Assembly (NCBI GenBank): GCA_964017825.1
Contig: CAXHMA010000001.1
Span: forward strand, 193,115-257,114
Source of the DNA: an uncultured Alphaproteobacteria bacterium
Lineage (GTDB): Bacteria > Pseudomonadota > Alphaproteobacteria > RF32 > CAG-239
Direction: 5' to 3'
Length of the DNA: 64,000 nt
In this document: positions 31,217 through 58,469 of the stretch, piece by piece
Layout: every line of letters begins with the position of its first letter
Position numbering within the stretch: the first letter of the stretch is position 1
Position numbers and translations under genes: made by a program
The notes under the pieces: model-generated
The model's database searches: none
Told to the model about the DNA's origin: nothing
Seen by the model: only the letters and a program-made list of their open reading frames with translations

Positions 31217-31880
31217 CCAATATGTCAGGCATATTCGGCGCCGCGCGGGAAATGCATGAAACGCTGCGCGACAACCACAGGAAAAACTCCGTAAACTTTA
31301 ACCCGCTCAAACGCTTCGGCGACATCAGCGAAAACTTCGCAAGTTTATCCAAATTGGCCCCCTGCGTTCCAACGGCATGAATAACCACCTTCTTGTTTTG
31401 CTGCGCCTCGCGGCATTTTGCCGCCGCCTGTTCCCAGCCGTAATCCGTCGGTTCACCGTCGCTGATTAAAAAAATCCATGGCCGCTTTGAGGTAATACCG
31501 CAGCTGTCATACAAACATTTTTGTTCTTCAATTTTTTGCAGCGCCAGTTCCATGGCTTTACCGATAGGCGAAAGCCCCGAAGCCTCCATAACAGGTGCCG
31601 AAAAATTCATTGCGTCAATCCAATCTGCGGAAATCTCAGCATCGTCTTTACCGTAAGCTTTAATCACCAAAAGCTGAACGCGCGAACTTGCGTCAATATC
31701 TTCTTTGAGCTCTTTCTCCAACGCCTGCAAACCGGTATTCAGCTGCTTTATCGGTTCACCGCGCATAGACCCCGAACAGTCCAAAACCAAAATACACGGT
31801 GTCCGCTCATTGGCATTTTCCGCAAATTCCACATACGGAATCATGACATCCGAAAAATCATCATTGCTGCTTTTATCCAT
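31182..31880 (-). CDS. von Willebrand factor A domain protein (TerY-like)
   Basis: MIDAS 'VLDCSGSM'. 'ISDGEPTD'. Overlaps the PP2C gene start. Confidence 0.8.
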   Translation of the reverse strand: MDKSSNDDFSDVMIPYVEFAENANERTPCILVLDCSGSMRGEPIKQLNTGLQALEKELKEDIDASSRVQLLVIKAYGKDDAEISADWIDAMNFSAPVMEASGLSPIGKAMELALQKIEEQKCLYDSCGITSKRPWIFLISDGEPTDYGWEQAAAKCREAQQNKKVVIHAVGTQGANLDKLAKFSLMSPKRLSGLKFTEFFLWLSRSVSCISRAAPNMPDILDDIEGWNEEEA

Positions 31881-32141
31881 TTATATATCCTTCTAATGCT
31901 GTATCGCCAAATTAATATCGGGGATATGTGTGCGGATACCCGCTGCCCTCAACCGGCACATTGGCGGAAACCCTACCGCACCCGCTTATATATAGAATGG
32001 AAAAAAATACTGAAAAAATCATTAAAAATTTAACTAAATATTTCATTTTTTACCCTATGTATTGCAATAACACTGGTTTAAATATATATCAAACGCTCAG
32101 AATGTACAAAGCTCAATCACTTTATTAACAGGAAAAAAATC

Positions 32142-33401: not shown

Positions 33402-34859
33402 TTATTTAATTTCAAGTTCTTTCTGGTTTTTGCCTTCGGCAGCATACTTCTCCAGCACAACCGCCGCTTTTTTCGGCATGGACAAACACCCCGGACCGGC
33501 AATGCATCCGCCTTCGCAGCTCATCACTTCCAGCATATTGCAACCGTCATCAAGTCCTTTAAGTGCATATTTCTTTAAATTTTTAACATTGTCTTTGGTC
33601 AAACCGTTAATCGCAAACGGGCGATAATCCGCCTTGCCGTCAATCAGGTTGGCAACAGCCGCCGCCACACCGCCGGAAAGCGCATATCGCCTTGATTGCT
33701 GAGACGCTTCATCAGCAAACGCAGACGCATCCAATGCATTAATGTCAATGCCTTTGGCCTCAAACATTGCCTGAATATCGGCAAACACCAAAACATAATC
33801 TACATTCGGGTTGCTTTCCGCTTCAATGCGTTTGGCAAGACACGGCCCGACAAACACGGTTACCGCATCCGGATAACGCTTCTTTGCGATTTCTGCCGTA
33901 TAATACATCGGGCTTCCGGTGTGCGAAACAAATTTCTCAATCTCGGGCACATGAACCTTCGCCGTTTTTACATAAGCCGGACAACATGACGTTGTCATAA
34001 ACGGTGCACCTTCTTCCATACGCTCGACAAATTCCGCCGACTCATTTTTAGATGTATATTCCGCACCGTAAGCCACTTCAATCACATCGTCAAAACCCAG
34101 CGCTTTATATGCGGCTATCACCTTGCCCAAATCATTGCCGAACTGTCCTAAAATGGCCGGCGCCACCATGGCAACCACTTTCTTTGCCGGATTCTTAATT
34201 GCATTCAGTACATCAATCATCTGCGAATTATAAACAATCGCACCGAACGGGCAGGATTGCAGACACTTGCCGCAGGATATGCACTTGTCAATATTAACTT
34301 CTTCCCTTCCTTCCGCATCTTTGCTGATGGCATTTACCGGACAAATTTCTTCACAGGGAACAACTGATTTATGGATGGCCCCATAAGGACAATAGCCCGC
34401 GCACAGCCCGCACTTGATGCACTTCTCCTGGTCAATCACTGCTTTATCCGTAACAGAAATTGCCTTCTTGGCGCAGTTTGCCTCGCACGGGCGTGCCACA
34501 CAGGCCTGACACATCGGCGTTACTTCAAACATTTTCGAACGGCAGGCATTGCACGCCGCTTTAATGACGGAAATCCCCGCCCGCGGCGCCTGAGTACGCG
34601 CCATCGCTTCTTTAACAAACTCATCCAAATCGCGATTCGCATCAACTTCCTGCGCCAAAAAGCCCATTGCCGCCAAAATCTGCCCCTTAACGGCAGCTTT
34701 TTCCGTCTCCGGATTGCGGCGGGCATTCTGCATAACCGATAATTCTGCCCAAACTTGGTTAATATCAGCCAATCCGTTCTCAATAAAAGATTTTGCCACT
34801 CTTTTTATAATTTCCGCACGAATTGGTGCCACATTGTTTTTTGCTGCAAGCATAGACAT
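33402..34859 (-). CDS. [FeFe]-hydrogenase-like protein: Cys-rich N-terminus plus 2x[4Fe-4S] ferredoxin domain plus H-cluster domain
   Basis: Ferredoxin motifs 'CIKCGLCAGYCP'/'CISCGKCLQSCP'. H-cluster motifs 'TTSCCPAY' (L1), 'GPCLAKRIE' (L2), 'EVMSCEGGCIAGPG' (L3). Confidence 0.75.
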   Translation of the reverse strand: MSMLAAKNNVAPIRAEIIKRVAKSFIENGLADINQVWAELSVMQNARRNPETEKAAVKGQILAAMGFLAQEVDANRDLDEFVKEAMARTQAPRAGISVIKAACNACRSKMFEVTPMCQACVARPCEANCAKKAISVTDKAVIDQEKCIKCGLCAGYCPYGAIHKSVVPCEEICPVNAISKDAEGREEVNIDKCISCGKCLQSCPFGAIVYNSQMIDVLNAIKNPAKKVVAMVAPAILGQFGNDLGKVIAAYKALGFDDVIEVAYGAEYTSKNESAEFVERMEEGAPFMTTSCCPAYVKTAKVHVPEIEKFVSHTGSPMYYTAEIAKKRYPDAVTVFVGPCLAKRIEAESNPNVDYVLVFADIQAMFEAKGIDINALDASAFADEASQQSRRYALSGGVAAAVANLIDGKADYRPFAINGLTKDNVKNLKKYALKGLDDGCNMLEVMSCEGGCIAGPGCLSMPKKAAVVLEKYAAEGKNQKELEIK

Positions 34860-35749: not shown

Positions 35750-38700
35750 TTAAAAGGCTGCCGAAACTCCGACAATTCCGATATAATCCGTCAAACCTTT
35801 TTCGCCGTCTGCATTAAACCGCGCTGAAACCTTTCCCGTCAGGCTCAAATCTTCATTCGTTTTACCCTGATAGTACAAGCCGACATCATATTCTTTCGCT
35901 CTCGGTTTGAGCGATGTCGTCAATTTTTGCATATATATCGTATCGCTTGCCGAATCCCGCCCGTTCGCATACATCAGTGAAGCTTTGCCTTTCACAACCG
36001 AAAGCGGCGAAGAAAAACTTAACCCTATTTTATCTGTCTTGTTCAATAAATATTCGCCCGCAAGCATAAAACTCTCGCTTTCCAGATCCGATATCGCCAG
36101 CATCGGCGCGTCCGCCCCCTGCGTATAACCGCGGTAATATGCCGCAGACAGCAGAATATTCGGGGTTAGGTTCAGCGCCGCCCTGACCCCCATATAATAT
36201 GTGGAACTGTCTTTAATACCGAATGCGCCGCTGCCGTTCATACCCAACAGAGCATTGTCCTCATAGAGCATACCGCCGAGCGCCGCCACTTCCAAATAGT
36301 CTGTCATGCCGAAGCTGTATTCGCCGCTGAATGCATAAGCCCTGTCGTCAAACGAATGATTATCTTGTTCATAATCCCTTTCATACAGCCCGTTTTCACC
36401 GGTTTGCAAAGACAATTTAAGCTTGGAACTATCGCTTAATTTCAGCATATTCTCGGCACCATATGCCTCATTCATCGCCAAATACGGATTTGAAGACGGT
36501 GATAACACATTGTCCTGAGACATATATTTACTGTTGACGGCATAATAAAAGCGCGTTGCACCGTCTACCGTCTCGCTGACAACTTCCGCAACCGCCAGAT
36601 TATTCTTTCCCCCTTTGTCCAGCGTCTCTTCCGAAGCAAATTGAAAACCCGTTTTCTCATCTTTAACCACGCGTTTGCCGTTGCCCGCCGCCATTCTGGA
36701 AACGGCATTGCGCAAATCGGCATTGGAAGCATGCGTCTGATTGACAATATTTTTTGTATCATACTCAAAAGGCCGGTTAAGAGCATCAAACGCCGTCACT
36801 TTTTCCGGCATCGCGGCCATCAACTTATTCTGTACCGCCGAAGATAAGGCAAGTTTGGAACCGGAAACCGGCAAAACCTGCTCAAACGATGTTTGCGTCG
36901 GCAGTCCCAACCCGCCGATAGGCGTCGTAACCGCCGCATTCAAATCCAAAGCACCCCTGCCGTATTTGTCGCTGTTGGCATACTCGCCTTGATTATTCGC
37001 CGTTTCCAATAAAAGATACGCAACATTCTGCGCCGAAAGCCATGGATAATACCCGTTTAATAAAGCAATACTGCCCGTAACAACAGGTGTAGACATAGAC
37101 GTCCCCGATTTACCGGTAAATCCGTCTTTCATCGGCGCCGTGGATTCAACCGATGTCCCGGGGGCCGCCAGACAATAGCCTTTCGTTGAACCGCACCAGT
37201 TGGCATAACCGGCCAGTTTTCCGGAAGGCGCGTTTGCCGTTCTCGTATCATAATCAAGCGCCGTAACGGCAATAAAGGGAGCTTCATATTTTTTCGGGCC
37301 CGCATATCCTTTATCAGACAAATCCAATCTGCCCATACCGGTATGCAGATTAGATTCATGCTGCATTTCGTTTCCGGTAGCCTGCACCCATACCGCGCCG
37401 TTTTTCGCAGCATAAACATAAGCTTCCAACTCATTGCTGCCACGCAGTTTTTCAGCAGTTGTCGCATTATTTTCCGAGGTAACATCAACACCCCAGCTAT
37501 GGTTTAACACTTTAACCCCGCTATCCACCATGCTGGTAATAACAGGCTTGATATCCTGTTTCAAATCCCAGCTGGCCGCCACAAGCTCCGCATTGTCAAA
37601 CGCCACACCGTGTATGCCGTTATTATTTTTATTTGCGGCAATAATCCCGGCAACATGCGTTCCGTGGCTTAATTGGTCGATAATATTAAGCCAGCTGTTA
37701 ACAAAAACTTCCGGTCCCGTATTTATATCCGTAATAAGACCGGACATATCCGCTCCGGGATTGTGCCCGTTTCCGCTGTTTATCAATGCCAATTCACTAA
37801 ACGGTATATTCCATTTTTTCTCCACTATATTTTTCATTTCCGCTTCGCTCAAACCCAGCGTGTCATTTGCGTTTGTATAATATGTAACAATGTCGGCATC
37901 ATGAAAAACATAATACTTTGAGCCTTTCTTTATAACATAACCCTGTCCCCAGCCGTCGCGGGAAACGCCCCAAACCGAGCTATCGTTATTATAAGGGTTT
38001 GCATCTATACCGGAAACAATTTTTCCCGCCAAATCTTTATTGGCATACACACCGGAATCCAAGACGCCGACTTTAATTTTTTTCAATGCCGCTTCACTGT
38101 CTGCCTGATGACTGAACACCGCACCTGTCAGATCTTTGCGGAAGATATGGCTGTATGCGTCTGCTGCCTTGATACCTTCCAAAAAATTAGTGCGCTTATA
38201 TTCTTCTGTTCTGAATTCATCCGGCGCCATATCATCCAAATGGCCGACAGGATCTTTGACTTCGCCTCCGGGCGTTTGCACCTCGCCGCTGACGTGAGAA
38301 TGTCCGCCGCCTCCGCTGCCGGCCAATGCGGCTATTCCCGCACCGGCAGCAACAACACCGGCGGCAGCCCAATAATAACTGTTATCATTTTCAAAAAATC
38401 CGGCAGACTTTCTGAATTTAGGCTGCGTTTGATAATTGCGTTCCGCTTGCCGGAAAGCAGGAGCCTCTTCTTCCGCAACATTTTCCGCACATTTCTGAGC
38501 CGTATTCGCGCCGTATTTCTTTAACAGTTCGAGCGCTTTTTCATCATTACTCCGCAAGGCAAAGCAATAAGCCGTATTGCCGCGGGCATCCTTAATATCA
38601 ACGGCACCTTTGTACCTTGACAATGCGCGGAAATAATCATGATTGCCGGCCTGTGCCTGCTTATAAATAAGGCCCGCACTGACAGACGCGGCCGAAGCGC

Positions 38701-38764
38701 TCGGCATATACCCGCCGCAAAGAGAAATCACACCCCAAAATAATAAAGTTTTTCTAGAAATCAT
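35750..38764 (-). CDS. Autotransporter with an N-terminal ankyrin-repeat module and an S8 subtilisin-like protease passenger
   Basis: Signal peptide. ANK 'DARGNTAYCFALRSNDEKALELLKKYGAN'. S8 triad motifs 'GVLDSGV', 'HGTHVAGI', 'GTSMSTPVV'. C-terminal beta-barrel ending in F. Confidence 0.85.
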   Translation of the reverse strand: MISRKTLLFWGVISLCGGYMPSASAASVSAGLIYKQAQAGNHDYFRALSRYKGAVDIKDARGNTAYCFALRSNDEKALELLKKYGANTAQKCAENVAEEEAPAFRQAERNYQTQPKFRKSAGFFENDNSYYWAAAGVVAAGAGIAALAGSGGGGHSHVSGEVQTPGGEVKDPVGHLDDMAPDEFRTEEYKRTNFLEGIKAADAYSHIFRKDLTGAVFSHQADSEAALKKIKVGVLDSGVYANKDLAGKIVSGIDANPYNNDSSVWGVSRDGWGQGYVIKKGSKYYVFHDADIVTYYTNANDTLGLSEAEMKNIVEKKWNIPFSELALINSGNGHNPGADMSGLITDINTGPEVFVNSWLNIIDQLSHGTHVAGIIAANKNNNGIHGVAFDNAELVAASWDLKQDIKPVITSMVDSGVKVLNHSWGVDVTSENNATTAEKLRGSNELEAYVYAAKNGAVWVQATGNEMQHESNLHTGMGRLDLSDKGYAGPKKYEAPFIAVTALDYDTRTANAPSGKLAGYANWCGSTKGYCLAAPGTSVESTAPMKDGFTGKSGTSMSTPVVTGSIALLNGYYPWLSAQNVAYLLLETANNQGEYANSDKYGRGALDLNAAVTTPIGGLGLPTQTSFEQVLPVSGSKLALSSAVQNKLMAAMPEKVTAFDALNRPFEYDTKNIVNQTHASNADLRNAVSRMAAGNGKRVVKDEKTGFQFASEETLDKGGKNNLAVAEVVSETVDGATRFYYAVNSKYMSQDNVLSPSSNPYLAMNEAYGAENMLKLSDSSKLKLSLQTGENGLYERDYEQDNHSFDDRAYAFSGEYSFGMTDYLEVAALGGMLYEDNALLGMNGSGAFGIKDSSTYYMGVRAALNLTPNILLSAAYYRGYTQGADAPMLAISDLESESFMLAGEYLLNKTDKIGLSFSSPLSVVKGKASLMYANGRDSASDTIYMQKLTTSLKPRAKEYDVGLYYQGKTNEDLSLTGKVSARFNADGEKGLTDYIGIVGVSAAF

Positions 38765-44987: not shown

Positions 44988-45326
44988 ATGGCACAGGTTG
45001 TTATTACCATAAACTATCGCGAATATGCCGTTTCCTGTGAAAACGGTCAGGAAGTCCATATTATGAAGTTGGCGCGCCAGCTGGATGAAAAAGCCAAAGC
45101 GTTAACCTCTGCATTGGGACATATTAACGAAAACCAGCTTCTGGCGATGGTCGGCCTTTTGGTTGCCGATGAGCTGAGCGAAGCCAAAAAGGCCGCGCCC
45201 GCAACGCCCGAGTCAAGCCCGAAACCCGATGTTGACCTTGCCGCCATAGACGCCGAATTGGCCGCAAATATAAATTCTTTAAACGAAACCATAAAATCTG
45301 TTGCAACTAAGATTAAATCCGTATAA
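44988..45326 (+). CDS. zapA: Cell division protein ZapA
   Basis: 'VVITINYREYAVSCENGQEVHI' ZapA N-terminus. Confidence 0.85.
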   Translation: MAQVVITINYREYAVSCENGQEVHIMKLARQLDEKAKALTSALGHINENQLLAMVGLLVADELSEAKKAAPATPESSPKPDVDLAAIDAELAANINSLNETIKSVATKIKSV

Positions 45327-45345
45327 GATAGATTATATAATAAAC

Positions 45346-45508
45346 GGACTGCCCTTCGCGTATTGAACCGCATATCTTCCGGGCCAACACTACTTAATAG
45401 GGAGCTGTCTCTGTCAGAATCGTGGTTCTGTTATATGGCGCCCACCTTATCTTGCGGGTATCGGAAAGAATGATACATATACGGTCCGGGCGGTCCGCCT
45501 CATATTTT
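45346..45508 (+). ncRNA. ssrS: Candidate 6S RNA (ssrS) downstream of zapA
   Basis: 5' GGACUGCCC pairs with 3' GGGCGGUCC, enclosing ~130 nt, followed by a U-run. Position matches the conserved zapA-ssrS synteny. Confidence 0.4.
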
Positions 45509-46358: not shown

Positions 46359-46868
46359 TTATTTTGCTCTGATGTTATAAAGCACACCGTTCTCACGGTA
46401 GAGCGTTGCTAATCGCAAATGGTCTGTCAAATCTGCTAAATCTTGCCAAGGCCACCCGCTTCTTATTATGTCAAGTTCCACGGCTGTACAGGATTTACCG
46501 TTTTTAATCACCGAATTTACAGTAACCTTAACTTTGCGCACTTTTCTTTTAGAATTACCGTTATACCTGGCAATTTCCTTGCCGTTAAAACTATAAACAA
46601 CGACATCATCGCCTTTACAAAAAACAAAGACTTGAACATTCTCATCAATCAAAAGCTTATCGTAATTCTCTTCAAGGACAACTCCTTTCTTGCGCAGTCC
46701 GTAAAGAGTTTTACTCGTACCCCAACTGTAATAATACGTTGAAGTAACAAGCTCGGCGTTGCTGCCGTATGAAGTGTAAGTTAAATCAACCTTAACTTCC
46801 TGACTCCGTGAGTATGCGCTTAAAGCAACACACATCATTACAAAAAGAACAAAAAATAATTTTTTCAC
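46359..46868 (-). CDS. Secreted 169-aa protein, paralogue A
   Basis: Signal peptide. ~35-40% identity to the neighbouring 47033-47542 product. Confidence 0.7.
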   Translation of the reverse strand: MKKLFFVLFVMMCVALSAYSRSQEVKVDLTYTSYGSNAELVTSTYYYSWGTSKTLYGLRKKGVVLEENYDKLLIDENVQVFVFCKGDDVVVYSFNGKEIARYNGNSKRKVRKVKVTVNSVIKNGKSCTAVELDIIRSGWPWQDLADLTDHLRLATLYRENGVLYNIRAK

Positions 46869-47032: not shown

Positions 47033-47542
47033 CTATAACTCTGTGGCTTTTTCACCTTCAATCAGGAATAACCTGCCGTAGGTACGGCAAAATGTTCCCA
47101 GCTCAATTTCACGATACCCCAAAGAAGTATCGCCTTTTCGCGGCGTACAACAGAATTTTACGGTTTTATAGACATATGAACCCTTAAAAGACGTAACAAC
47201 CATCATACTCCGCTTGTCAAAACGGTCACATCTCTGGTCTTGGGCTTCAACTTTCGCTAACTCTTTACCGTCTCTCACTCTGTAAACGGCAGCATATTTT
47301 TCATTAAAAAAGATAAATACGCGCAAGTTTTCCTCAACCATAAGTTCACAGTCTTGCACAAGAACAATCCCGTTTTTGCGCAGCCCGTACAGCACGCTGC
47401 TTTTACCGCCGTTGAAATATGTGGTTGTCACAAGATCAACGCCTTGGCCGTATTCGGTGTGGGTAACGTCCACTTTATCACCGGCTGACGCGCCCAAAGC
47501 AACGCACAAAACGGCAATAAACAAAACAATAATTTTCTTCAC
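47033..47542 (-). CDS. Secreted 169-aa protein, paralogue B
   Basis: Signal peptide. Shares its upstream leader sequence with paralogue A. Confidence 0.7.
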   Translation of the reverse strand: MKKIIVLFIAVLCVALGASAGDKVDVTHTEYGQGVDLVTTTYFNGGKSSVLYGLRKNGIVLVQDCELMVEENLRVFIFFNEKYAAVYRVRDGKELAKVEAQDQRCDRFDKRSMMVVTSFKGSYVYKTVKFCCTPRKGDTSLGYREIELGTFCRTYGRLFLIEGEKATEL

Positions 47543-47708: not shown

Positions 47709-48164
47709 TTACCGTACGGGGTGAGCGTAATTATAGCAGCTCATAACCAAATCTTCTTTTTTGTAAAACACTTTGTATGCCGCATACAGAAGCGAAAGTA
47801 CAATTGCCGCCATATAAACGTCATAAACCGGCATATAGTTGTTTAAGAAGACTGTCATGCTGTCGGAACCTGTCGTAAAGTAGTCTACGATCAGCGACAC
47901 AATGGCATAGATGACTGAAAAATACGGTATCCACCCGATAGAGGCTAAAAATACGGAAAGCCGCGGAAAGTTTTCATTCATCCGGTGAACGAATCCCCAG
48001 GATGAAATGAAAGACAGCGAGAGCGCCAATACCGCAACCCAGAACAAAACGTACAACACACCGCCCATGGCATAACTCAACTGTGTGTTAAACAGGGCAA
48101 TGATGAATGCCAGCAGCTGATACATGCCACCGAGCAGCAAAAGTTCATTTCTGCATATTTTCAT
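47709..48164 (-). CDS. Hypothetical membrane protein (4 TM helices)
   Basis: ORF only. Confidence 0.5.
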   Translation of the reverse strand: MKICRNELLLLGGMYQLLAFIIALFNTQLSYAMGGVLYVLFWVAVLALSLSFISSWGFVHRMNENFPRLSVFLASIGWIPYFSVIYAIVSLIVDYFTTGSDSMTVFLNNYMPVYDVYMAAIVLSLLYAAYKVFYKKEDLVMSCYNYAHPVR

Positions 48165-48467
48165 AATGACCTCCTTAAAATGAGATGATACACAAAAATC
48201 ACCATAAAACACATATGCACGCCGCACACCGCTTCCAACCTAGGCTTTCGTCGGTATAAGGTTATAGCAAAAAGTCTGCCCGCCGTCCGAAACAGCGGGC
48301 TTATCGTCAACCGCTGGATTGCCGCGTCGCTCCGCTCCTCGCAATAACTCACAAAAAAGCGAGCCAAACTGACTCGCTCTAACTCTTTCATAAAAATAAG
48401 GGGCAGAATTTCTCTGCCCCTGCAATGGGTGGGATAAAGCACATCCCCCTATCGTAAAAACACGATA

Positions 48468-51880: not shown

Positions 51881-54800
51881 TCAGAAATTGCACCGAACGC
51901 CCAAACCGCCCTCAACATTGCTCTCTTTTTCGGCATTATGCGCAATTTCCGCCGCCACCGAAAAATCTCCGTCTTTATAAACGGCTTCTGCCGATGTTCT
52001 GATTCTGTCTTTATTTTCGTCATACCCGTTGAGATGATAACGAACCGGTGAGCCGTTCATACCGACCGTCAAATCTTTATACGGGTCTAAAAATTCATGA
52101 TAGTACTTAACCCCGACAGCCAACATCAAAGAACGCTCCTTTGCCAAAGCAACGCGCTTGCGCAGCTTAACCCCGACACCGCTTTCCAGCGACAGCGAAT
52201 TATTCGCATGCAGATTCAGTCCCTCGTCCTCTTTGGCCTTAGACATTGAACTGCCTTGCAAGTTCAGCTCTGCCTCAGCCACCAGTTCTGCAACCTTCAT
52301 ATCTACGCTGTATTCGGCATGGTTGTACAAACCGTAATATAAATCAAGCGTATCTGCATCATAAGAGCCCGAAACGGCTTTTCTCTTATAAGAGCCATAG
52401 CCGACGCCAACCTCAGGCATGGCCAAAAACGTCATATTCCCGTTTTGATACATAATCGGCAAAAAGGCCATCAGTATTTTATTTTCTCTGCTTGAACGCG
52501 CTTCGTCATAATCCGCATCGGCATATGCCGCGCGCAAAGTGCCGCCCATACTCCAATTTCCGCTGAGCTTGCCGCCGAAACCTAAATATGCGCTGTATAC
52601 ATCGTCGGCATATCCGCTGAGCCCGCCGGAAGCGTCTTTGCCGGTCCGGTAATAATCAGCTCCGACAGACCTGCCGTTCAACCCGTCTTCCAGTATCCTG
52701 TTTTGTTCCTGCGTATTCAAACCGCGCAGAACCGCCATATTTTCCCTTTGCAGATTGGCATAAAACGTTTTACCGCTTTCTTTTTCCACTGTTGCATTAA
52801 ATTCTTTTTTATCTTCTGCAGCTTTCAATGCATTGAACATTTTTTCATTATTCTGCAAACCGTAATTCGTTTCAAAAAATGCGGCCAAATCTTTTTCTTC
52901 CACCAAATCATCAAAACTCTTGCGATTGAGCTCTACATCAACGGTATCGTTTTTATCTTTAAGTGAAGCGTCAAACATATACGATTCGGAAGAAACATTC
53001 AGCCCCTCGTTCCTCCCTGCGAAAGAATTCTGATTGGTATATGTATCGTCAAACCCGCCCGTCACGATATCTTTCCCGGCAACGACATCCCCTTTGAAAC
53101 TGTCTGCGGCATATGTTCCGCCCGATGCTATCACAAAAGCACCGCTCTCATCGCGTAACGTATCAAAATCAACATCCGTTTTACCGAAATCCGCCTGACC
53201 TTTGTTGACAAACGCAGCATTCTCACCGACAAATATCGGAGCATAGTCCGTCGGGCTGATTGATTTGGTTTTCTTATCCTCGCTTGCATCTTCACACGTC
53301 CCGCCGACACCTACATTTGCGCAATGTCCGCCTTTTTCGGAATCAAACATGATTTTCCCGCCGTTGATAAATTTACCGGAATTTGTTACATATGCGCCAT
53401 ATCCGCTTTCGGTTATTGCTATTGTGCCGTAATTTGTTGCAGTTGAAGACGCACCGTCAACATGTATACCTTTTCCGTTACCAACCGTAATCGTGCCGTT
53501 ATTGACTGCCGAACCGCTCGTAACATAAACACCCGTTCCATTGACAATCGTAATGTTTTTTGCATTATTGAAACGACCGCCTTCGACTTTAACACCCAAT
53601 GTATTGCCGTCAATAGTCCCCGAATTGGTGAAATCCCCTGTAACGACGACACCTGCACCGACACCGTTATTTGTAATAGAGCCGATATTACTGCCGGAAC
53701 CTCTTACGCCGGTTCCTGATTCATTAACGGTTATTGTTCCGCTGTTCTTTATATTGCCATCCACGCCGGTACCGTCGGAATAAACCTTAATTTCACCCTT
53801 ATTTTCCACTGCGCCGTAAACACCGGTACCGGAATTAACCGTAATGGTTCCGCCATCGTTTTTGGCGGTTGCTCCGGTATTGTAAATCCCGTAAGCAGAA
53901 TCACCGTTTACCACAATATCAGTATAATTGCGGACATTTCCCGCTACGGCATAAATCCCGATGCCGCTGTCATTAGCGGTAATTGTCCCGTTATTGGTAA
54001 CTTCTGCGGAAGAGCGAATACCTTCTGCTCCGCCGGAAGCGGTAATCTTACCGTTTTCATTATCAAAATGAGCCCCGTTGACAACTACAACACCCTTATT
54101 TCCGTCACCGGTAACGTTTATATTGCCTGTATTTGTTCCTAAGGTATAAGATATAGTCGTGCCGTCCGACAAATAAATACCCGTACCGCCTGTTACATTA
54201 ACGCTGCCGTTATTTTCCACCTGTGCGGCGTCTTCCGCTCTGATACCCGTTCCCCCGTCTGACACATTGATAGAGGATCTGCCGTCCGTACTTACAAAAG
54301 TTTGGGAATTCTGCCCGTACATACCGATAGTTTCGCTACCGGATACATTTAATGTGCCCTGATTATAGGCACTGCCGGCACTCCCGGCAGCAATCGCCAT
54401 CGTCCCGTTTTGAGCATAAACCGTTCCCTGATTATACACTTTTCCGTTGCTCGCGGCCACAAGCAGATGCGAATTGCTGCCGCTGACATAGGCCGTCGAG
54501 CCAAAACGAACTGACCCCGCATATGTTGCCTTGCCTAAGGTATAACCGTCCACCGTTATCGGGTCATCATAGCGCAAATTAAGCACCGCATTTTCATTAG
54601 CCCAAAAATATGTTGCGTTTTCCAAACCGCTCTGATGTGTAATAGTACCTGCTTCGGCAAGCACTGCATCTGCACCTTCAATCAAAAAAGCAGTCGTATC
54701 ATCTCCTTCAAGAGAAATTGTCCCGTAGTTATATGCTGTTCCGTTCTCCACGTACATTCCGACTGAATTGCTGCCCTTAACATGAATCTGCGGGTTATCA

Positions 54801-57394
54801 TCAAAACCGTATCTGCCGTTAAAAATAAGTCCTTGCTTATCGGTAACATGCATTCCGGCTCCGTCGTTGCCATTCAGCCAAATCGTTCCCCAATTGGTTG
54901 CCTCCGCCCTGTTCTGCGAATCATTGCGCATTCCTTCTGAAAGGGTTGCATTAACCGTAATCGTCCCTCTGTTATTAATAGCGGCCCCGGCCCTCGTCGT
55001 CGAATCCAAAACCATGCCGATATTTCCTTGCAGCGTATCACGGTTATACATATCCAATATAATAACATTGTTATTACTTGCTGAGCCTTGTTTGGAAACC
55101 AGCATACCGGCCGTGCCGTATGTACCGTTGTAATCAGCTTCCGAGAGTGTGGCGCCGATAACAAAGGTTCCGTTGTTAACTATATACTGCCTTGTCGTAT
55201 CGTTATTGGAAGAAGCCCACATCACCGAAGCTATGGGTGCTGATATGACAGGGCGTCCCTGTGAATCTATCGTTGCAGAAAATTCCTCACTGTTATCAAC
55301 TTTATAAATAACGCTGCCGTTATTGACCGCTTCCGAGAAATTACCGCCGAAAACCTTCGAATCCTTCGCCTTGTGTGAAACATAAACTGTACCGTTGTTC
55401 TGTAAGCTGACCGAACCGGCAAAAGCATTATACAGTGCCGTAGACTGCTCTGAATAAACATTGATAATGCCGTCATTAATCAGCGATACCTGATCCGAAA
55501 GCGAATCTCCCGCTGCATACAGACCATAATTGTTCGTATAATAAGACTGCCCGAGCTCAAACCCGAGGTTAATTACACCCTTATTGACAATCTCGCCGCC
55601 GGCAAATGAAGCCATACCGTAAGCATTGCTTACCCGCATATCAATCAGACCGTAATTATAAAGCTTCGGCTGCGACCAATCATAAACTCTTGTTTGTGTT
55701 CCGTCACCTTTTGCCGCTAACATACCGTATGTTGTTCCGCCGGCCTTAGCCTGATTTAAAATGCGGATTGTCCCGCCTGTTTCCGCCCTACTGCCGTCAT
55801 AATCAAAACCGACCGTACCGTTTGTGAGTCCCCCTCCGTGCACGGAAAGCAACCCCGCAGCCACATCCGTTCCGGCACTGCCGATCACCGCATTTTGCAG
55901 ATCAATATCTATATTGCCGGTATTCTGCGCAAAGGTCGAAGCATCGGCGCGCATGCCGATTAACCCGCCGTCACCAAGCTTCAAAGCTGTATCCGCCAAT
56001 GCATATTGGCCTTGATATGATAATTTTATATTACCGTAATTATGCATAAACATCTTTTCCGCATATGCAGGATTGCTATGACCGTTAAGAAACTTATCGT
56101 CAATATAGCTGCCCATGCCGATAAGGCTGACGGAACTGTCCGCCGCATTGTTATAACCGGCAGAAAGCTGAATATCGCCGTAATTGTCTGCCCGTACAGA
56201 CGTCCCGCTGTTATTCGTTCCGGTATAAAAATTAAATAACGCCATACCGAGCATGGTTCCGGAATTGGCGGAAGCGGTTTTGTTGGCAGTACCTTCCCCT
56301 TCGCTGTCGTCAACAAATATATCAGGGATATCGGTACCCGTATCTTTATTGTCTTCCCCCGTTTCGGCATAGGTCGTCGTTCCGGTGATTTTACCGTAAT
56401 TTATTGCCCGTGATCCGGTGTCTGCATACATTCCGATAACGGCATCGCCCTCGTTGCCTCCGGAAAACGCCATATTGATATTACCGTTCAATTCATCTGT
56501 GCTTCTGTCGGGATTATTAAAAACGGTTGCACTGTTGCTGGCCGCCAAACCGATTGCGCCGTTGCGCGCGTTAATTTCGATAATACCATTGTTGCTTACC
56601 GTCGAGCCTTTGCCGTAAGCAGCCGCCCCTACCGCCGCATCGCCCAAACGAAGCCCGCCGCCGAACATATTGTTAAAATACCCGCCGTTAATAACTTTGA
56701 TATAAGCTTGAAGATAATCCGCATTATCCAGCATATTCGGCAAAAATTTAATATTTCCGGTTACTGACGCACCGTTCGGATTGGAAGCATCAAGTTTCAA
56801 AGTATTGCTGACGTTAACATTGTTGTACAATTTTCGGTAATTGTCTATTAACGCGGTAAGCCCGTAACCGGGGTCTGTCGGAATAATCGTATCATCACCT
56901 TCCGCGGGTTTGGATTTGCTGCCCCCGCCGCTTGACAGAGCCAAGGCGCCGCCGCCGACAGCCGCACCGCCCAAAATCCATGGCCACCAGCTCGTCTCAT
57001 CATCTTGATAATACAGTGATTCCTCATTGCCGATAATCCTGTCTGCATTTGCTGCCTGCCGTGAATTGAGAAAATCCTGATATTCATTATACATCCGATA
57101 TGTACAAGGATGACGCGGGTTTGCCCCGCTCATTCTGAAAGTATTGTATGCGATATAATTTTCCCTCTTAACCGCAACGCAAAGCCCGGTATCCCCTTCG
57201 GCATTCATGGCGTCAATATTTAAGCCCCGATTCACCGCATCGCGCAAAATGCCGACCTTACCTTTTGTGGCAAGATAATACATCTTGTTAAAATTCTGCG
57301 GTGACAGCCTTCCGCCATATGCCCAAACATTGCCTGCCGCCATCAAGGCAGCCGCACATACGGCAGAAAACATCAAATCGGTTCTAAATTTCAT
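51881..57394 (-). CDS. Giant (1837-aa) autotransporter: signal peptide, ankyrin module, hydrophobic Gly/Ala segment, Gly/Asn/Thr-rich beta-helix-like repeats, C-terminal beta-barrel
   Basis: Single uninterrupted ORF. N-terminus parallels the S8 autotransporter. C-terminus ends 'LGVRCNF'. Confidence 0.85.
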   Translation of the reverse strand: MKFRTDLMFSAVCAAALMAAGNVWAYGGRLSPQNFNKMYYLATKGKVGILRDAVNRGLNIDAMNAEGDTGLCVAVKRENYIAYNTFRMSGANPRHPCTYRMYNEYQDFLNSRQAANADRIIGNEESLYYQDDETSWWPWILGGAAVGGGALALSSGGGSKSKPAEGDDTIIPTDPGYGLTALIDNYRKLYNNVNVSNTLKLDASNPNGASVTGNIKFLPNMLDNADYLQAYIKVINGGYFNNMFGGGLRLGDAAVGAAAYGKGSTVSNNGIIEINARNGAIGLAASNSATVFNNPDRSTDELNGNINMAFSGGNEGDAVIGMYADTGSRAINYGKITGTTTYAETGEDNKDTGTDIPDIFVDDSEGEGTANKTASANSGTMLGMALFNFYTGTNNSGTSVRADNYGDIQLSAGYNNAADSSVSLIGMGSYIDDKFLNGHSNPAYAEKMFMHNYGNIKLSYQGQYALADTALKLGDGGLIGMRADASTFAQNTGNIDIDLQNAVIGSAGTDVAAGLLSVHGGGLTNGTVGFDYDGSRAETGGTIRILNQAKAGGTTYGMLAAKGDGTQTRVYDWSQPKLYNYGLIDMRVSNAYGMASFAGGEIVNKGVINLGFELGQSYYTNNYGLYAAGDSLSDQVSLINDGIINVYSEQSTALYNAFAGSVSLQNNGTVYVSHKAKDSKVFGGNFSEAVNNGSVIYKVDNSEEFSATIDSQGRPVISAPIASVMWASSNNDTTRQYIVNNGTFVIGATLSEADYNGTYGTAGMLVSKQGSASNNNVIILDMYNRDTLQGNIGMVLDSTTRAGAAINNRGTITVNATLSEGMRNDSQNRAEATNWGTIWLNGNDGAGMHVTDKQGLIFNGRYGFDDNPQIHVKGSNSVGMYVENGTAYNYGTISLEGDDTTAFLIEGADAVLAEAGTITHQSGLENATYFWANENAVLNLRYDDPITVDGYTLGKATYAGSVRFGSTAYVSGSNSHLLVAASNGKVYNQGTVYAQNGTMAIAAGSAGSAYNQGTLNVSGSETIGMYGQNSQTFVSTDGRSSINVSDGGTGIRAEDAAQVENNGSVNVTGGTGIYLSDGTTISYTLGTNTGNINVTGDGNKGVVVVNGAHFDNENGKITASGGAEGIRSSAEVTNNGTITANDSGIGIYAVAGNVRNYTDIVVNGDSAYGIYNTGATAKNDGGTITVNSGTGVYGAVENKGEIKVYSDGTGVDGNIKNSGTITVNESGTGVRGSGSNIGSITNNGVGAGVVVTGDFTNSGTIDGNTLGVKVEGGRFNNAKNITIVNGTGVYVTSGSAVNNGTITVGNGKGIHVDGASSTATNYGTIAITESGYGAYVTNSGKFINGGKIMFDSEKGGHCANVGVGGTCEDASEDKKTKSISPTDYAPIFVGENAAFVNKGQADFGKTDVDFDTLRDESGAFVIASGGTYAADSFKGDVVAGKDIVTGGFDDTYTNQNSFAGRNEGLNVSSESYMFDASLKDKNDTVDVELNRKSFDDLVEEKDLAAFFETNYGLQNNEKMFNALKAAEDKKEFNATVEKESGKTFYANLQRENMAVLRGLNTQEQNRILEDGLNGRSVGADYYRTGKDASGGLSGYADDVYSAYLGFGGKLSGNWSMGGTLRAAYADADYDEARSSRENKILMAFLPIMYQNGNMTFLAMPEVGVGYGSYKRKAVSGSYDADTLDLYYGLYNHAEYSVDMKVAELVAEAELNLQGSSMSKAKEDEGLNLHANNSLSLESGVGVKLRKRVALAKERSLMLAVGVKYYHEFLDPYKDLTVGMNGSPVRYHLNGYDENKDRIRTSAEAVYKDGDFSVAAEIAHNAEKESNVEGGLGVRCNF

Positions 57395-57544
57395 CAGTCA
57401 GACCATATAAAAACAATTGCTTTGAGATGATTCTAAACCGATGTTTCTTAACAAAAAGATAATATACACAAATTATCAACGAAATATTATATGCAAAAAG
57501 CCCCTGCATAATTTGCAGGAGCTTTATACTGCCGAATTTATTTT

Positions 57545-57839: not shown

Positions 57840-58391
57840 CTATATTTCCAGCAAATGGGAAACAAATGCCGTTGCATAATCTTTTTTTAAGTTTTGGTAG
57901 TCCAGATAATAAGCATGCTCCCAAACATCTATGTTGAATATCGGCTTATAGCCCAAAACCAAAGGCGTATCGCCGTTTTTTGTCGTCAGCACTTCCAACT
58001 TGCCGCCCTTTCCCTCTGCCAGCCACACCCAGCCGCTGCCGAAAAATGTTGCGGCTTTATTCACGAGCTCTTCTTTTAAGGTGTCCGTATCCCCGAATGT
58101 TTCTTTAATCTTTGCTTTCACATCGTCTTTCATCTCACTGCCGATTCCGACGGATTTCCAATAAACATTGTGGTTATAAACCTGTCCGGCATTGTTATAC
58201 AGCGTTTGCAAATCGTTTTTTCCATATGTTCGCTCGATAATCTCTTCTACCGGCAAATCCTGAAATTCCGTTCCGGCAATCAGTTCATTGACCTTGTCCA
58301 CATACCCTTTATGATGTTTCCCGTAATGAAAACGAACCGTCTTTTCCGAAATATACGGCTCCAAAGCGTCTTCTTCAAAAGGCAATTTCAT
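57840..58391 (-). CDS. Fe/Mn-family superoxide dismutase
   Basis: 'LPFEEDALEPYIS…HYGKHH…DVWEHAYYLDYQN'. Confidence 0.92.
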   Translation of the reverse strand: MKLPFEEDALEPYISEKTVRFHYGKHHKGYVDKVNELIAGTEFQDLPVEEIIERTYGKNDLQTLYNNAGQVYNHNVYWKSVGIGSEMKDDVKAKIKETFGDTDTLKEELVNKAATFFGSGWVWLAEGKGGKLEVLTTKNGDTPLVLGYKPIFNIDVWEHAYYLDYQNLKKDYATAFVSHLLEI

Positions 58392-58469
58392 CAATTCTAA
58401 CATTTTTCTTCCCCTAAAATTATGATTATCACTTCACAAATGCGGTTAAATGCTTATTTTATAATATAT

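What the first reader, a model, noticed from the sequence alone, without database searches (positions are those of the whole stretch)
51881..57394. 1837-aa Gly/Asn/Thr-rich giant autotransporter sharing the same N-terminal ankyrin + hydrophobic Gly/Ala module
The second autotransporter is >5.5 kb and filled with degenerate G-T-G/N-N-G-T repeats typical of beta-helical adhesin passengers. It begins with the same architecture as the S8 autotransporter: signal peptide, one ankyrin-like repeat, 'SWWPWILGGAAVGGGALALSSGGGS', then the passenger. Two paralogous N-terminal modules on different passengers suggest a lineage-specific, modular surface-protein family, possibly for host interaction. The internal repeats are also prone to assembly collapse.
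Basis: seen in the sequence. Interest (0 to 1): 0.6.

Follow-up and report, generated by a model that had tools for sequence, protein, structure and literature searches.

The report
Giant autotransporter with ankyrin-anchor N-terminus
This is an intact 1837-residue outer-membrane autotransporter from an uncultured gut alphaproteobacterium; it is ordinary except for a strongly conserved, apparently undescribed N-terminal module (ankyrin-like domain plus membrane-like Gly/Ala stretch) that this lineage attaches to many different surface proteins.

Summary
The ORF is real: 51881-57394, minus strand, 1837 aa. It is a classical (type Va) autotransporter.
- The isolated C-terminus matches Pfam PF03797 (E 1.8e-17).
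- AlphaFold2 gives a pore helix plus a 12-strand barrel (pLDDT 87), and the 18 best PDB fold matches are all autotransporters.
- The passenger is a BigA-type beta-helix with degenerate N-x-G-x-I rungs.

- It is homologous to the N-terminus of the S8 protease at 35750-38764 (profile E 5e-12).
- Both paralogue families keep an invariant Cys pair spaced exactly 25 residues.
- It is the best-conserved part of the family.
- In relatives it also occurs on EGF-like/beta-helix autotransporters and on a 535-aa autotransporter. It also occurs alone, as a roughly 150-aa protein that ends at the hydrophobic stretch.
- Nearly all 118 related loci come from uncultured gut or rumen Alphaproteobacteria.

- The worry about assembly collapse is unsupported.
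- The S8 protein's C-terminus could not be confirmed as an autotransporter barrel.

The function and topology of the module remain unresolved. My best guess is that it is a shared envelope-anchoring or sorting element.

The parts
51881..57394 (-). Complete gene for the 1837-aa type Va autotransporter (stop codon 51881-51883)
   Evidence: ORF list and translation. The identical protein is called on NCBI MAG GCA_965648045.1, contig CBFGFR010000001.1. There are 1359 homologues, and the closest 87 are full-length collinear.
57320..57394 (-). Sec-type signal peptide, aa 1-25 (MKFRTDLMFSAVCAAALMAAGNVWA|YGG)
   Evidence: Read from the sequence. The n/h/c regions and an AxA-like site are conserved in position across homologues. 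No dedicated predictor was available.
57056..57307 (-). Ankyrin-like domain, aa 30-113, with invariant Cys72 and Cys97
   Evidence: AF2 pLDDT 81-90, six helices. Foldseek top 50 are almost all ankyrin/DARPin, prob 0.96-1.0. Pfam Ank_4 is sub-threshold at E 0.053. The module profile retrieves multi-ankyrin proteins at E < 1e-50. Identity is 72% to close and 55% to distant relatives, the highest of any region apart from the hydrophobic stretch.
56996..57055 (-). Variable linker, aa 114-133
   Evidence: Low conservation, 47% / 15%. AF2 pLDDT about 30.
56933..56995 (-). W-flanked Gly/Ala hydrophobic stretch, aa 134-154 (TSWWPWILGGAAVGGGALAL), with a GG-x3-GG core
   Evidence: Second hydropathy peak after the signal peptide. 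Conserved 75% / 58%. Hessa-scale sum is +3.4 to +5.7 in this clade, -0.3 to +2 in distant clades and -1.5 to +0.75 in stand-alone homologues. AF2 gives no confident structure.
56870..56932 (-). Poly-Gly/Ser spacer and start of the passenger, aa 155-175
   Evidence: Alignment A2 shows a GGGG... run in every homologue. pLDDT about 30.
52916..56869 (-). Passenger, aa 176-1493: BigA-type beta-helix with degenerate 19-21-aa N-x-G-x-I rungs, and a closely spaced Cys pair at 1358/1367
   Evidence: Precomputed Pfam hits BigA_3rd and BigA_4th (weak). AF2 gives beta-strands at pLDDT > 85 for aa 176-330 and aa 1394-1491. Motif and periodicity statistics. The middle of the passenger was not modelled.
52772..52915 (-). 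Small helical junction, aa 1494-1541, between the beta-helix and the pore helix
   Evidence: AF2 helices at model residues 157-203, pLDDT > 90.
52685..52771 (-). Long alpha-helix, aa 1542-1570, predicted to occupy the barrel pore
   Evidence: AF2 helix at model residues 205-233. Aligned to the linker helices of NalP, EspP and EstA in the Foldseek matches.
51884..52675 (-). 12-stranded outer-membrane beta-barrel (translocator), aa 1574-1837, ending ...GVRCNF
   Evidence: PF03797 E 1.8e-17, 64.4 bits against a cut-off of 26, on the isolated fragment. AF2 gives 12 strands, pLDDT about 90. Foldseek ranks 1-18 are AaaA, EstA, NalP, EspP, Hbp, BrkA and AIDA-I; TM 0.76 normalised to NalP.
38297..38764 (-). 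Paralogous N-terminal module (signal peptide, Ank-like domain with Cys67/Cys92, YYWAAAGVVAAGAGIAALAGSGGGG) of the 1004-aa S8 peptidase gene at 35750-38764
   Evidence: Profile HMM hit at E 5.2e-12, collinear. The Cys pair is spaced 25 aa in all of about 60 full-length S8-family members, the same spacing as in the big family. Peptidase_S8 covers aa 228-604.
57395..57544 (-). Intergenic leader: terminator-like hairpin of the upstream gene (about 57490-57515), then an AT-rich region before the ATG
   Evidence: Sequence reading. The consensus promoter scan is not above shuffles. Inference only.

Best explanation
SHOWN. The gene encodes a classical (type Va) autotransporter made of these parts, in order:
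- a Sec signal peptide;
- a BigA/AIDA-type beta-helical passenger of about 1300 residues;
- a short helical junction;
- a pore-spanning helix;
- a 12-stranded PF03797 barrel.

Between the signal peptide and the passenger sits a 150-residue module: an ankyrin-like domain with an invariant Cys pair, a W-flanked Gly/Ala hydrophobic stretch, and a poly-Gly spacer.
- The module is homologous to the N-terminus of the neighbouring S8 peptidase.
- It is the most conserved part of the whole family.
- In related genomes it is fused to unrelated passengers, and it also exists alone, ending at the hydrophobic stretch.

INFERRED. The precursor is exported by Sec. BAM inserts the barrel, and the passenger is threaded out C-to-N to form a cell-bound stalk (adhesin-like; no release site was identified). 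Because the module is conserved regardless of cargo, it is most likely a lineage-specific envelope-anchoring or sorting element, not a host-binding tip.
- The Ank domain would fold in an oxidising compartment (periplasm or surface). The conserved Cys pair suggests a disulfide, which was not tested.
- The Gly/Ala stretch would associate with a membrane and tether the passenger's N-terminus. This would be functionally analogous to the N-terminal lipid anchor of NalP and SphB1.
- In this clade the stretch is Gly-rich enough (about +5 kcal/mol on the Hessa scale) to pass SecYEG rather than stop transfer.

Which membrane it ends up in is not established.
For: Autotransporter identity: PF03797 at 64 bits; AF2 pLDDT 87, pTM 0.77; 18 top PDB hits are autotransporters; BigA_3rd / BigA_4th.

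Reality and mobility of the module:
- profile E 5e-12 to the S8 protein.
- alignment.
- Ank 72/55% and hydrophobic stretch 75/58% identity, against passenger 51/31% and 35/19% and barrel 69/29%.
- Cys spacing of 25 aa in both families.
- the module on a 535-aa PF03797 autotransporter (L072); on EGF-like + beta-helix + PF03797 proteins (L079, L082; L074 has the same N-terminal layout but runs off its contig); on an S8 protein next to a BigA-like gene (L025).
- stand-alone proteins L077, L078 and L081 ending ...VVAL.

Membrane character of the stretch.

Lineage restriction. Of 118 loci, nearly all are uncultured gut or rumen Alphaproteobacteria MAGs.

No dedicated accessory gene.
Against: - No tool here tests localisation or topology.
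- AF2 gives the hydrophobic stretch pLDDT of about 30 and no helix.
- In distant clades the stretch is as hydrophobic as the signal peptides. That would predict stop-transfer in the inner membrane, which is incompatible with autotransport, so the simple 'passes Sec' story may not generalise.
- Some relatives place Cys-rich EGF-like arrays after the poly-Gly. Multi-disulfide domains such as hEGF are reported to block autotransport in E. coli (PMC3521207).
- The signal peptide was judged by eye only.
- The middle 1000 residues of the passenger were not modelled.
Confidence: 0.55

Rival explanations
1. Surface-tip effector. The whole N-terminus is secreted last and ends at the distal end of the beta-helix stalk. 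The ankyrin domain binds a host or neighbour-cell protein. The Gly/Ala stretch inserts into a target membrane, in the manner of the GxxxG-rich hydrophobic N-terminus of VacA or a viral fusion peptide.
For: - N-termini of beta-helical autotransporters are distal and often functional (established knowledge).
- Ankyrin repeats are protein-binding modules.
- The stretch is moderately hydrophobic, Gly/Ala-rich and contains a GxxxG motif (G144-G148), like fusion peptides and VacA (sequence reading).
- The poly-Gly would act as a flexible hinge.
Against: - The module is far more conserved than the passengers, and it is shared by functionally unrelated cargos. That is atypical for host-exposed tips.
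- Stand-alone homologues look like membrane-anchored periplasmic proteins with no secretion device.
- A folded domain with a 25-residue Cys loop would have to cross the outer membrane.
- There is no homology to VacA.
Confidence: 0.2
2. Transient biogenesis tether. The module holds the N-terminus of these very long passengers at the periplasmic face of the inner membrane, keeping it unfolded until the barrel engages BAM. This is the role proposed for extended signal peptides (ESPR) of large autotransporters. The module is then dragged out or clipped off.
For: - The module is found mainly on long proteins (470-4291 aa among single-stretch hits).
- It is conserved irrespective of cargo.
- The hydrophobic stretch is comparable in hydrophobicity to signal-peptide cores.
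- There is no ESPR (PF13018) in these proteins, so another device could fill that role.
Against: - It also occurs on a 535-aa autotransporter with almost no passenger (L072) and as a stand-alone protein.
- An N-out/C-in helix cannot tether without blocking export, so a re-entrant geometry has to be assumed.
- No cleavage motif was identified.
Confidence: 0.15
3. Artefact. The 5.5-kb ORF is a mis-assembled or collapsed repeat region, or a fusion of several genes.
For: The protein has low-complexity, repeat-like composition.
Against: - There are no DNA tandem repeats, and direct repeats are at most 40 nt at no more than 89% identity.
- The identical protein is found on two contigs of 299-466 kb.
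- Eighty-plus independently assembled homologues have the same length and domain order.
- The domain order from signal peptide to terminal Phe is coherent.
Confidence: 0.02

Closest known systems
Salmonella BigA / AIDA-I-type classical (type Va) autotransporters
   Same: - Signal peptide, long beta-helical passenger, pore helix and 12-strand PF03797 barrel.
- Precomputed Pfam BigA_3rd and BigA_4th hits on the passenger.
- BigA is described as having an AIDA-I-like passenger on a NalP-type barrel (PMC3419190). NalP is among the best fold matches here.
   Different: - BigA and AIDA-I are not described as having an ankyrin domain or an internal hydrophobic stretch between signal peptide and passenger (my own knowledge; I did not examine their sequences here).
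- Sequence identity to any solved autotransporter is below detection by phmmer/hmmsearch.
- There is an extra helical bundle of about 48 aa before the pore helix.
Lipoprotein autotransporters NalP (Neisseria) and SphB1 (Bordetella)
   Same: An extra N-terminal membrane-anchoring device sits ahead of the passenger of a type Va protein. NalP and SphB1 are S8 subtilases, like the window's second module-bearing protein (established knowledge).
   Different: The anchor there is an acylated Cys from a lipobox. Here there is no lipobox (cleavage region GNVWA|YGG). The putative anchor is a Gly/Ala hydrophobic peptide preceded by a folded ankyrin domain.
Extended signal peptide region (ESPR, PF13018) of large autotransporters
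   Same: A conserved N-terminal add-on found on very long type V proteins and independent of passenger type. It is proposed to slow release from the inner membrane.
   Different: ESPR lies inside the signal peptide and is removed with it. Here the module follows a normal-looking signal peptide, is 150 aa long and contains a folded domain. No PF13018 hit.
Periplasmic/membrane-anchored bacterial ankyrin proteins (for example AnkB, PDB 9iq8)
   Same: A small two-to-three-repeat ankyrin fold (Foldseek prob 0.99). The stand-alone homologues L077, L078 and L081 have a signal peptide plus one hydrophobic anchor.
   Different: No sequence-level relationship was shown. Here the anchor is C-terminal to the Ank domain and, in most family members, is followed by a whole autotransporter.
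VacA N-terminal hydrophobic GxxxG region / viral fusion peptides
   Same: A Gly/Ala-rich, moderately hydrophobic stretch of about 20 residues at the N-terminal end of a secreted passenger, with a GxxxG motif.
   Different: This is an analogy from memory only. There is no homology, only one strict GxxxG, and the stretch is preceded by a folded domain rather than being at the mature N-terminus.

Membership tests
Type Va (classical) autotransporter | C-terminal 12-stranded beta-barrel translocator (Pfam PF03797) | tested here: met
   PF03797 at E 1.8e-17, 64.4 bits (cut-off 26), on aa 1540-1837 scanned alone. The hit was missed when the full-length protein was scanned. AF2 gives 12 strands. Foldseek ranks 1-18 are autotransporter barrels.
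Type Va (classical) autotransporter | Alpha-helical linker occupying the barrel pore | tested here: met
   AF2 helix at aa 1542-1570 immediately before strand 1, pLDDT > 88. This is a prediction only.
Type Va (classical) autotransporter | N-terminal Sec signal peptide | tested here: inconclusive
   It has typical n/h/c regions and a VWA|Y site, with position conserved in alignment A2. No SignalP-type predictor was available.
Type Va (classical) autotransporter | Beta-helical passenger | tested here: met
   AF2 gives beta-helix-like strands at aa 176-330 and aa 1394-1491. There are N-x-G-x-I rungs with a period of about 19-21 aa and BigA_3rd / BigA_4th hits. Residues 331-1393 were not modelled.
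Type Va (classical) autotransporter | C-terminal aromatic residue (beta-signal) | tested here: met
   The protein ends ...GLGVRCNF. Homologues end ...RYNF or ...GYKF.
Type Va (classical) autotransporter | Passenger actually displayed on the cell surface | not testable with these tools
   Needs expression and surface-accessibility assays.
BigA-type passenger (Pfam BigA_3rd PF27417, BigA_4th PF27415) | Match to the Pfam passenger-domain models | tested here: met
   Precomputed hits: BigA_3rd unmarked (E <= 1e-5) and BigA_4th weak. Both are present in most of the 120 listed homologues. The models are absent from the local Pfam copy, so they were not re-run. Relatives also carry BigA_beta PF25783.
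Ankyrin repeat | Helix-turn-helix/beta-hairpin repeat recognised by ankyrin profiles or by fold | tested here: met
   Pfam Ank_4 scores only E 0.053, 14.3 bits, below the 22.7 cut-off. The fold search returns ankyrins and DARPins almost exclusively. The module profile hits multi-ankyrin proteins at E down to 1e-146. Relatives reach Ank_4 E 2e-4.
Lipoprotein autotransporters (NalP/SphB1 type) | Lipobox with an invariant Cys at +1 of the signal-peptide cleavage site | tested here: not met
   The cleavage region is AAGNVWA|YGG. The only Cys in the signal peptide is at position 13, within the h-region.
ESPR-containing autotransporters | Extended signal peptide region (PF13018) | tested here: not met
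   No hit in the Pfam scan at E <= 0.1. The signal peptide is of normal length (25 aa).
Glycine-zipper outer-membrane lipoproteins (SlyB/Pcp, Rick_17kDa_Anti, Gly-zipper_Omp) | Match to glycine-zipper Pfam models; lipobox | tested here: not met
   No such Pfam hit at E <= 0.1 and no lipobox.
C-terminal sorting signals (GlyGly-CTERM, PEP-CTERM) | Signature motif + TM helix + basic cluster at the extreme C-terminus | tested here: not met
   The stretch is internal in the autotransporters. In the stand-alone proteins it is C-terminal but lacks any basic tail (...ILVVAL*). There are no NCBIfam hits.
S8 autotransporter (for the partner protein 35750-38764) | PF03797-type barrel after the S8 domain | tested here: not met
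   No PF03797 hit even on isolated C-terminal fragments of this protein or its relatives. hhalign against this family's barrel gives prob < 1%. The PDB profile search is empty.

The most novel reading that the evidence does not exclude
The Ank + Gly/Ala + poly-Gly module is a previously unrecognised N-terminal sorting or anchoring signal for outer-membrane surface proteins in gut Alphaproteobacteria. It produces a topology not known for type V secretion. In that topology the disulfide-locked ankyrin domain stays in the periplasm as a stopper or membrane-anchored handle, while the small-residue Gly/Ala/poly-Gly thread crosses or embeds in the outer membrane, so the passenger is tethered at both ends. 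This would explain three observations:
- the module is conserved independently of cargo;
- it exists as a stand-alone anchored periplasmic protein;
- Cys-rich domains are tolerated next to it.
Probability: 0.12. Interest if true: 0.8.

Novelty: new variant of a known kind. Interest (0 to 1): 0.5.

Why it matters
Type V secretion is treated as the simplest secretion pathway: a signal peptide, a passenger and a barrel. Here several hundred proteins from an abundant but uncultured gut and rumen lineage insert a folded, Cys-paired ankyrin domain and a transmembrane-like peptide between the signal peptide and the passenger.

- If the peptide is a true membrane segment, it creates a topological conflict with autotransport as currently understood.
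- The same module is used on adhesin-like, protease and EGF-like cargos.
- Working out where it ends up would either reveal a new way to anchor or sort surface proteins, or define how hydrophobic a segment the Sec/BAM route can tolerate.
- Practically, the module is a clean sequence marker for the surface proteome of these uncultured Alphaproteobacteria.

The autotransporter itself is ordinary.

Tried and rejected
1. A word-indexed homologue search with the S8 N-terminal 178 aa returned nothing, not even the protein itself. That was a wasted search, and the question was answered instead with local profile HMMs.
2. Sequence searches of the whole protein and of a C-terminal profile against PDB found no autotransporter. 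Only the fold comparison did.
3. Full-length Pfam and NCBIfam scans missed PF03797. The fragment scan recovered it.
4. Attempts to show that the S8 protein's C-terminus is a type Va barrel all failed.
5. A search for a conserved accessory gene next to module-bearing genes in 79 loci found only clade-level synteny (superoxide dismutase upstream in 25 loci, as in the window) and no universal partner.
6. The exhaustive profile search was swamped by generic multi-ankyrin proteins. It gives lengths and architectures for about 70 true members but no usable family size.
7. The AFDB fold library was unavailable.
8. Literature searches found no description of this architecture. The queries were the Pfam ids; ankyrin + autotransporter + Alphaproteobacteria; RF32 + autotransporter; glycine zipper + autotransporter.
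9. I considered and rejected a lipoprotein anchor, ESPR, glycine-zipper lipoproteins and CTERM sorting signals (see the membership tests).
10. I rejected assembly collapse.
Full report
**1. Observation**

The minus-strand ORF 51881-57394 exists and encodes 1837 aa from an ATG start. Composition is G 13.6%, A 9.9%, N 9.7%, S 7.8%, T 7.3%. The quoted motif SWWPWILGGAAVGGGALALSSGGGS lies at aa 135-159.

The identical protein is called on a 299-kb contig of NCBI MAG GCA_965648045.1. The gene sits behind a terminator-like hairpin of the upstream gene and an AT-rich leader, so it looks monocistronic.

**2. Is it an artefact?**

It is not.
- Tandem Repeats Finder reports only two trivial hits. The longest direct DNA repeats are 40 nt at 70% identity, and the best identity is 89% over 18 nt.
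- The first 87 homologues come from many independent assemblies. They are mostly 1790-1985 aa and align over 100% of the query at 42-74% identity.
- In 80 loci from GTDB species representatives, the gene is again one uninterrupted ORF with the same order of parts.

The worry about assembly collapse is therefore not supported.

**3. The C-terminus is a type Va translocator**

Scans of the full-length protein against Pfam and NCBIfam showed nothing but a sub-threshold ankyrin hit. PDB sequence searches were empty.

Scanning aa 1540-1837 alone gives PF03797 (Autotransporter beta-domain) at E 1.8e-17 and 64.4 bits, against a cut-off of 26. I suspect composition-bias filtering of the long full-length protein hid the hit, but I did not test that.

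AlphaFold2 on the last 500 residues, with a 20-sequence alignment, gave mean pLDDT 87 and pTM 0.77. The model has:
- a beta-strand region at aa 1394-1491;
- a small helical bundle at aa 1494-1540;
- one long helix at aa 1542-1570;
- twelve strands from aa 1574 to the terminal Phe.

Foldseek against PDB ranks AaaA, EstA, NalP, EspP, Hbp, BrkA and AIDA-I translocators in positions 1-18. E-values run from 4e-14 to 3e-8, and TM is 0.76 normalised to NalP.

**4. The passenger**

- Precomputed Pfam annotations give BigA_3rd (PF27417) and, weakly, BigA_4th (PF27415). These models are newer than the local Pfam copy. Most of the 120 listed homologues carry them. BigA of Salmonella is described as having an AIDA-I-like passenger on a NalP-group barrel (PMC3419190).
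- AF2 predicts confident beta-helix-type strands from aa 176 onward and up to aa 1491.
- N-x-G-x-I occurs 20 times against 1.3 expected (z = 16). NNG[TS] occurs 6 times against 0.4. Residues 1001-1340 show a period of 19-21 residues.
- The only passenger cysteines (1358 and 1367) are 9 residues apart. From my own knowledge, Cys pairs in autotransporter passengers are typically closely spaced.

I found no release motif. Cell-bound, adhesin-like display is an inference.

**5. The N-terminal module**

After a 25-residue signal peptide of classical appearance come four parts:
- **aa 30-113.** Six helices at pLDDT 81-90. The fold neighbours are almost exclusively ankyrin repeats and DARPins, including bacterial AnkB and an Acinetobacter Ank domain (prob 0.96-1.0).
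- **aa 114-133.** A variable linker.
- **aa 134-154.** The stretch TSWWPWILGGAAVGGGALAL.
- **aa 155 onward.** Poly-Gly/Ser.

AF2 assigns aa 115-175 a pLDDT of about 30 and no secondary structure.

A profile HMM built from the first 175-190 residues of the query and its 119 homologues was searched with all filters off against all 564 stop-to-stop ORFs of the window.
- It finds only the gene itself and the S8 peptidase gene at 35750-38764.
- The S8 hit scores E 5.2e-12 and aligns collinearly over aa 38-165, covering the Ank part, both cysteines, the spacer and the hydrophobic/poly-Gly part.
- Pairwise BLASTP alone is marginal, at E 3e-4.
- The Cys pair is spaced exactly 25 residues in this protein (72/97), in the S8 protein (67/92) and in about 60 full-length members of the S8 family.

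**6. Conservation and modularity**

Mean identity to the window protein across 119 homologues, for close and distant relatives respectively:

| Region | Close relatives | Distant relatives |
|---|---|---|
| Ank domain | 72% | 55% |
| Hydrophobic stretch | 75% | 58% |
| Passenger, aa 176-1000 | 51% | 31% |
| Passenger, aa 1001-1340 | 35% | 19% |
| Barrel | 69% | 29% |

The module is therefore the most constrained part of the protein.

A pattern scan of one genome per GTDB species found 118 confirmed loci. Nearly all are uncultured gut or rumen Alphaproteobacteria MAGs; a few bins carry evidently wrong labels.

Besides BigA-type proteins of 1550-3200 aa, the module precedes these architectures:
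- a 535-aa protein that is little more than module plus PF03797 barrel (L072);
- proteins with Cys-rich EGF-like arrays, a beta-helix and a PF03797 barrel (L079, L082). L074 has the same N-terminal layout but runs off its contig. P0247 and P0255 are further EGF-like examples;
- an S8 peptidase immediately downstream of a BigA-type gene (L025);
- nothing at all. L077, L078 and L081 encode roughly 150-aa proteins (signal peptide, Ank...FWPWVIGGAIITVILVVAL-stop) followed by unrelated genes.

More distant S8 proteins show the same N-terminal layout ahead of the S8 domain. P0327 and P0331 have canonical multi-repeat ankyrins, then a Gly/Ala hydrophobic stretch, then poly-Gly. P0329 has the stretch and poly-Gly without an ankyrin.

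An exhaustive profile search returned about 70 single-stretch, N-terminal, full-module hits of 470-4291 aa among the top 150. The remainder were generic giant ankyrin proteins, which incidentally confirms the ankyrin nature of the domain.

No conserved accessory gene flanks these loci.

**7. How it probably works, and what does not fit**

The secretion route (Sec, then BAM, then C-to-N threading) follows from family membership. The module is the open question.

Conservation that is independent of cargo is the signature of a sorting or anchoring device that meets a constant bacterial partner. It is not what a host-exposed tip usually shows. The stand-alone homologues look like periplasmic ankyrin proteins held by a C-terminal membrane anchor. 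The conserved Cys pair suggests a non-cytoplasmic location. I therefore favour an envelope-anchoring or sorting role, analogous in effect to the N-terminal lipid of NalP and SphB1.

The difficulty is topological. After a cleaved signal peptide, a true stop-transfer helix would strand the passenger and barrel in the cytoplasm. A simple Hessa-scale sum over the best 19-mer gives:

| Group | Hessa-scale sum |
|---|---|
| Window's clade | +3.4 to +5.7 (should pass SecYEG) |
| Distant clades | -0.3 to +2 |
| Stand-alone proteins | -1.5 to +0.75 |
| Signal-peptide cores | +1 to +7 (mostly +1 to +5) |

A second puzzle concerns disulfides. Multi-disulfide domains such as hEGF are reported to block autotransport (PMC3521207). 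Yet some family members place EGF-like Cys arrays right after the poly-Gly. These points remain unexplained.

The rival readings are a surface tip with a fusion-peptide-like inserter, a transient ESPR-like tether, and a two-ended tether with a periplasmic ankyrin stopper. None is excluded.

**8. The partner protein**

The S8 domain is clear (Pfam E 4e-34). About 65 full-length relatives exist in the same lineage.

The C-terminal 200-300 residues end in ...VGVSAAF. They match neither PF03797, nor this family's barrel profile, nor any PDB sequence. 'S8 autotransporter' is therefore unproven. It may have a divergent or different outer-membrane domain.

**9. Comparison and novelty**

- As an autotransporter this is a new member of a known kind. 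GenBank already labels some homologues 'autotransporter outer membrane beta-barrel domain-containing protein'.
- The N-terminal Ank + Gly/Ala + poly-Gly module is absent from NCBIfam. I did not find it described in the searchable literature.
- It fails the defining features of lipoprotein autotransporters, ESPR, glycine-zipper lipoproteins and CTERM sorting signals.

I rate the whole as a new variant of a known kind, with interest 0.5. The interest lies in the module and its topological puzzle, not in the giant repeat protein.

Noticed in passing
window 35750-36667 (C-terminal ~300 aa of the S8 peptidase gene 35750-38764, minus strand): The S8 protein ends in an OMP-like ...VGVSAAF. It has no detectable similarity to PF03797, to the big protein's barrel profile or to any PDB sequence. 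It may carry an uncharacterised outer-membrane anchor domain of about 200 aa.
   Followed up: partly
L077 8896-9384; L078 8884-9381; L081 3572-4027: These are stand-alone proteins of about 150 aa: signal peptide, the same Cys-paired ankyrin domain, and a C-terminal hydrophobic tail (...FWPWVIGGAIITVILVVAL-stop). They are followed by unrelated small membrane-protein genes, not by a passenger.
   Followed up: partly
L074 8863-12003; L079 8896-14127; L082 2241-7787; proteins P0247, P0255: These module-bearing proteins (L079 and L082 with a confirmed PF03797 barrel) have tandem Cys-rich EGF-like repeats (C-x-x-G-C...C-x-x-C) between the poly-Gly and the beta-helix. That is unexpected for type V passengers, which normally avoid multiple disulfides.
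   Followed up: partly
proteins P0327, P0329, P0331 (L083 for P0329, GCA_003279355.1): These more distant S8 peptidases (24-32% identity over their local alignments) also place a Gly/Ala hydrophobic stretch plus poly-Gly before the S8 domain, with canonical multi-repeat ankyrins (P0327, P0331) or without (P0329). P0327 and P0329 also end in an aromatic residue. The N-terminal layout may therefore be older and wider than the gut clade.
   Followed up: partly
window 51881-57394, method note: hmmscan of the full 1837-aa protein did not report PF03797. The isolated C-terminal 298 aa scored 64 bits. Long low-complexity proteins can hide real domain hits in routine annotation.
   Followed up: yes
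window 45343-45500 (+): A 6S (SsrS) RNA was found by Rfam (58.6 bits) directly downstream of the zapA-like gene at 44988-45326. This is, as I recall, the usual zapA-ssrS arrangement.
   Followed up: no
window 46359-46868 and 47033-47542 (both minus strand): Two tandem 169-aa ORFs, each with a signal peptide and visible sequence similarity to each other, have no Pfam hit. A third, hydrophobic 172-aa ORF follows at 47709-48227. All lie between the YmdB-like gene and EF-Tu.
   Followed up: no
window ~28980-31900 (genes seen as L001 16885-19785): A cluster of a VWA-domain protein, a PP2C phosphatase and a eukaryotic-type Ser/Thr kinase lies near an [FeFe]-hydrogenase-like gene (33402-34859). The hydrogenase is consistent with an anaerobic gut lifestyle.
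   Followed up: no
window 57840-58403 (minus strand) and 25 of 79 related loci: An Fe/Mn superoxide dismutase gene lies immediately upstream of the autotransporter in the window and in 25 related loci. This looks like clade-level synteny rather than a functional partner.
   Followed up: partly
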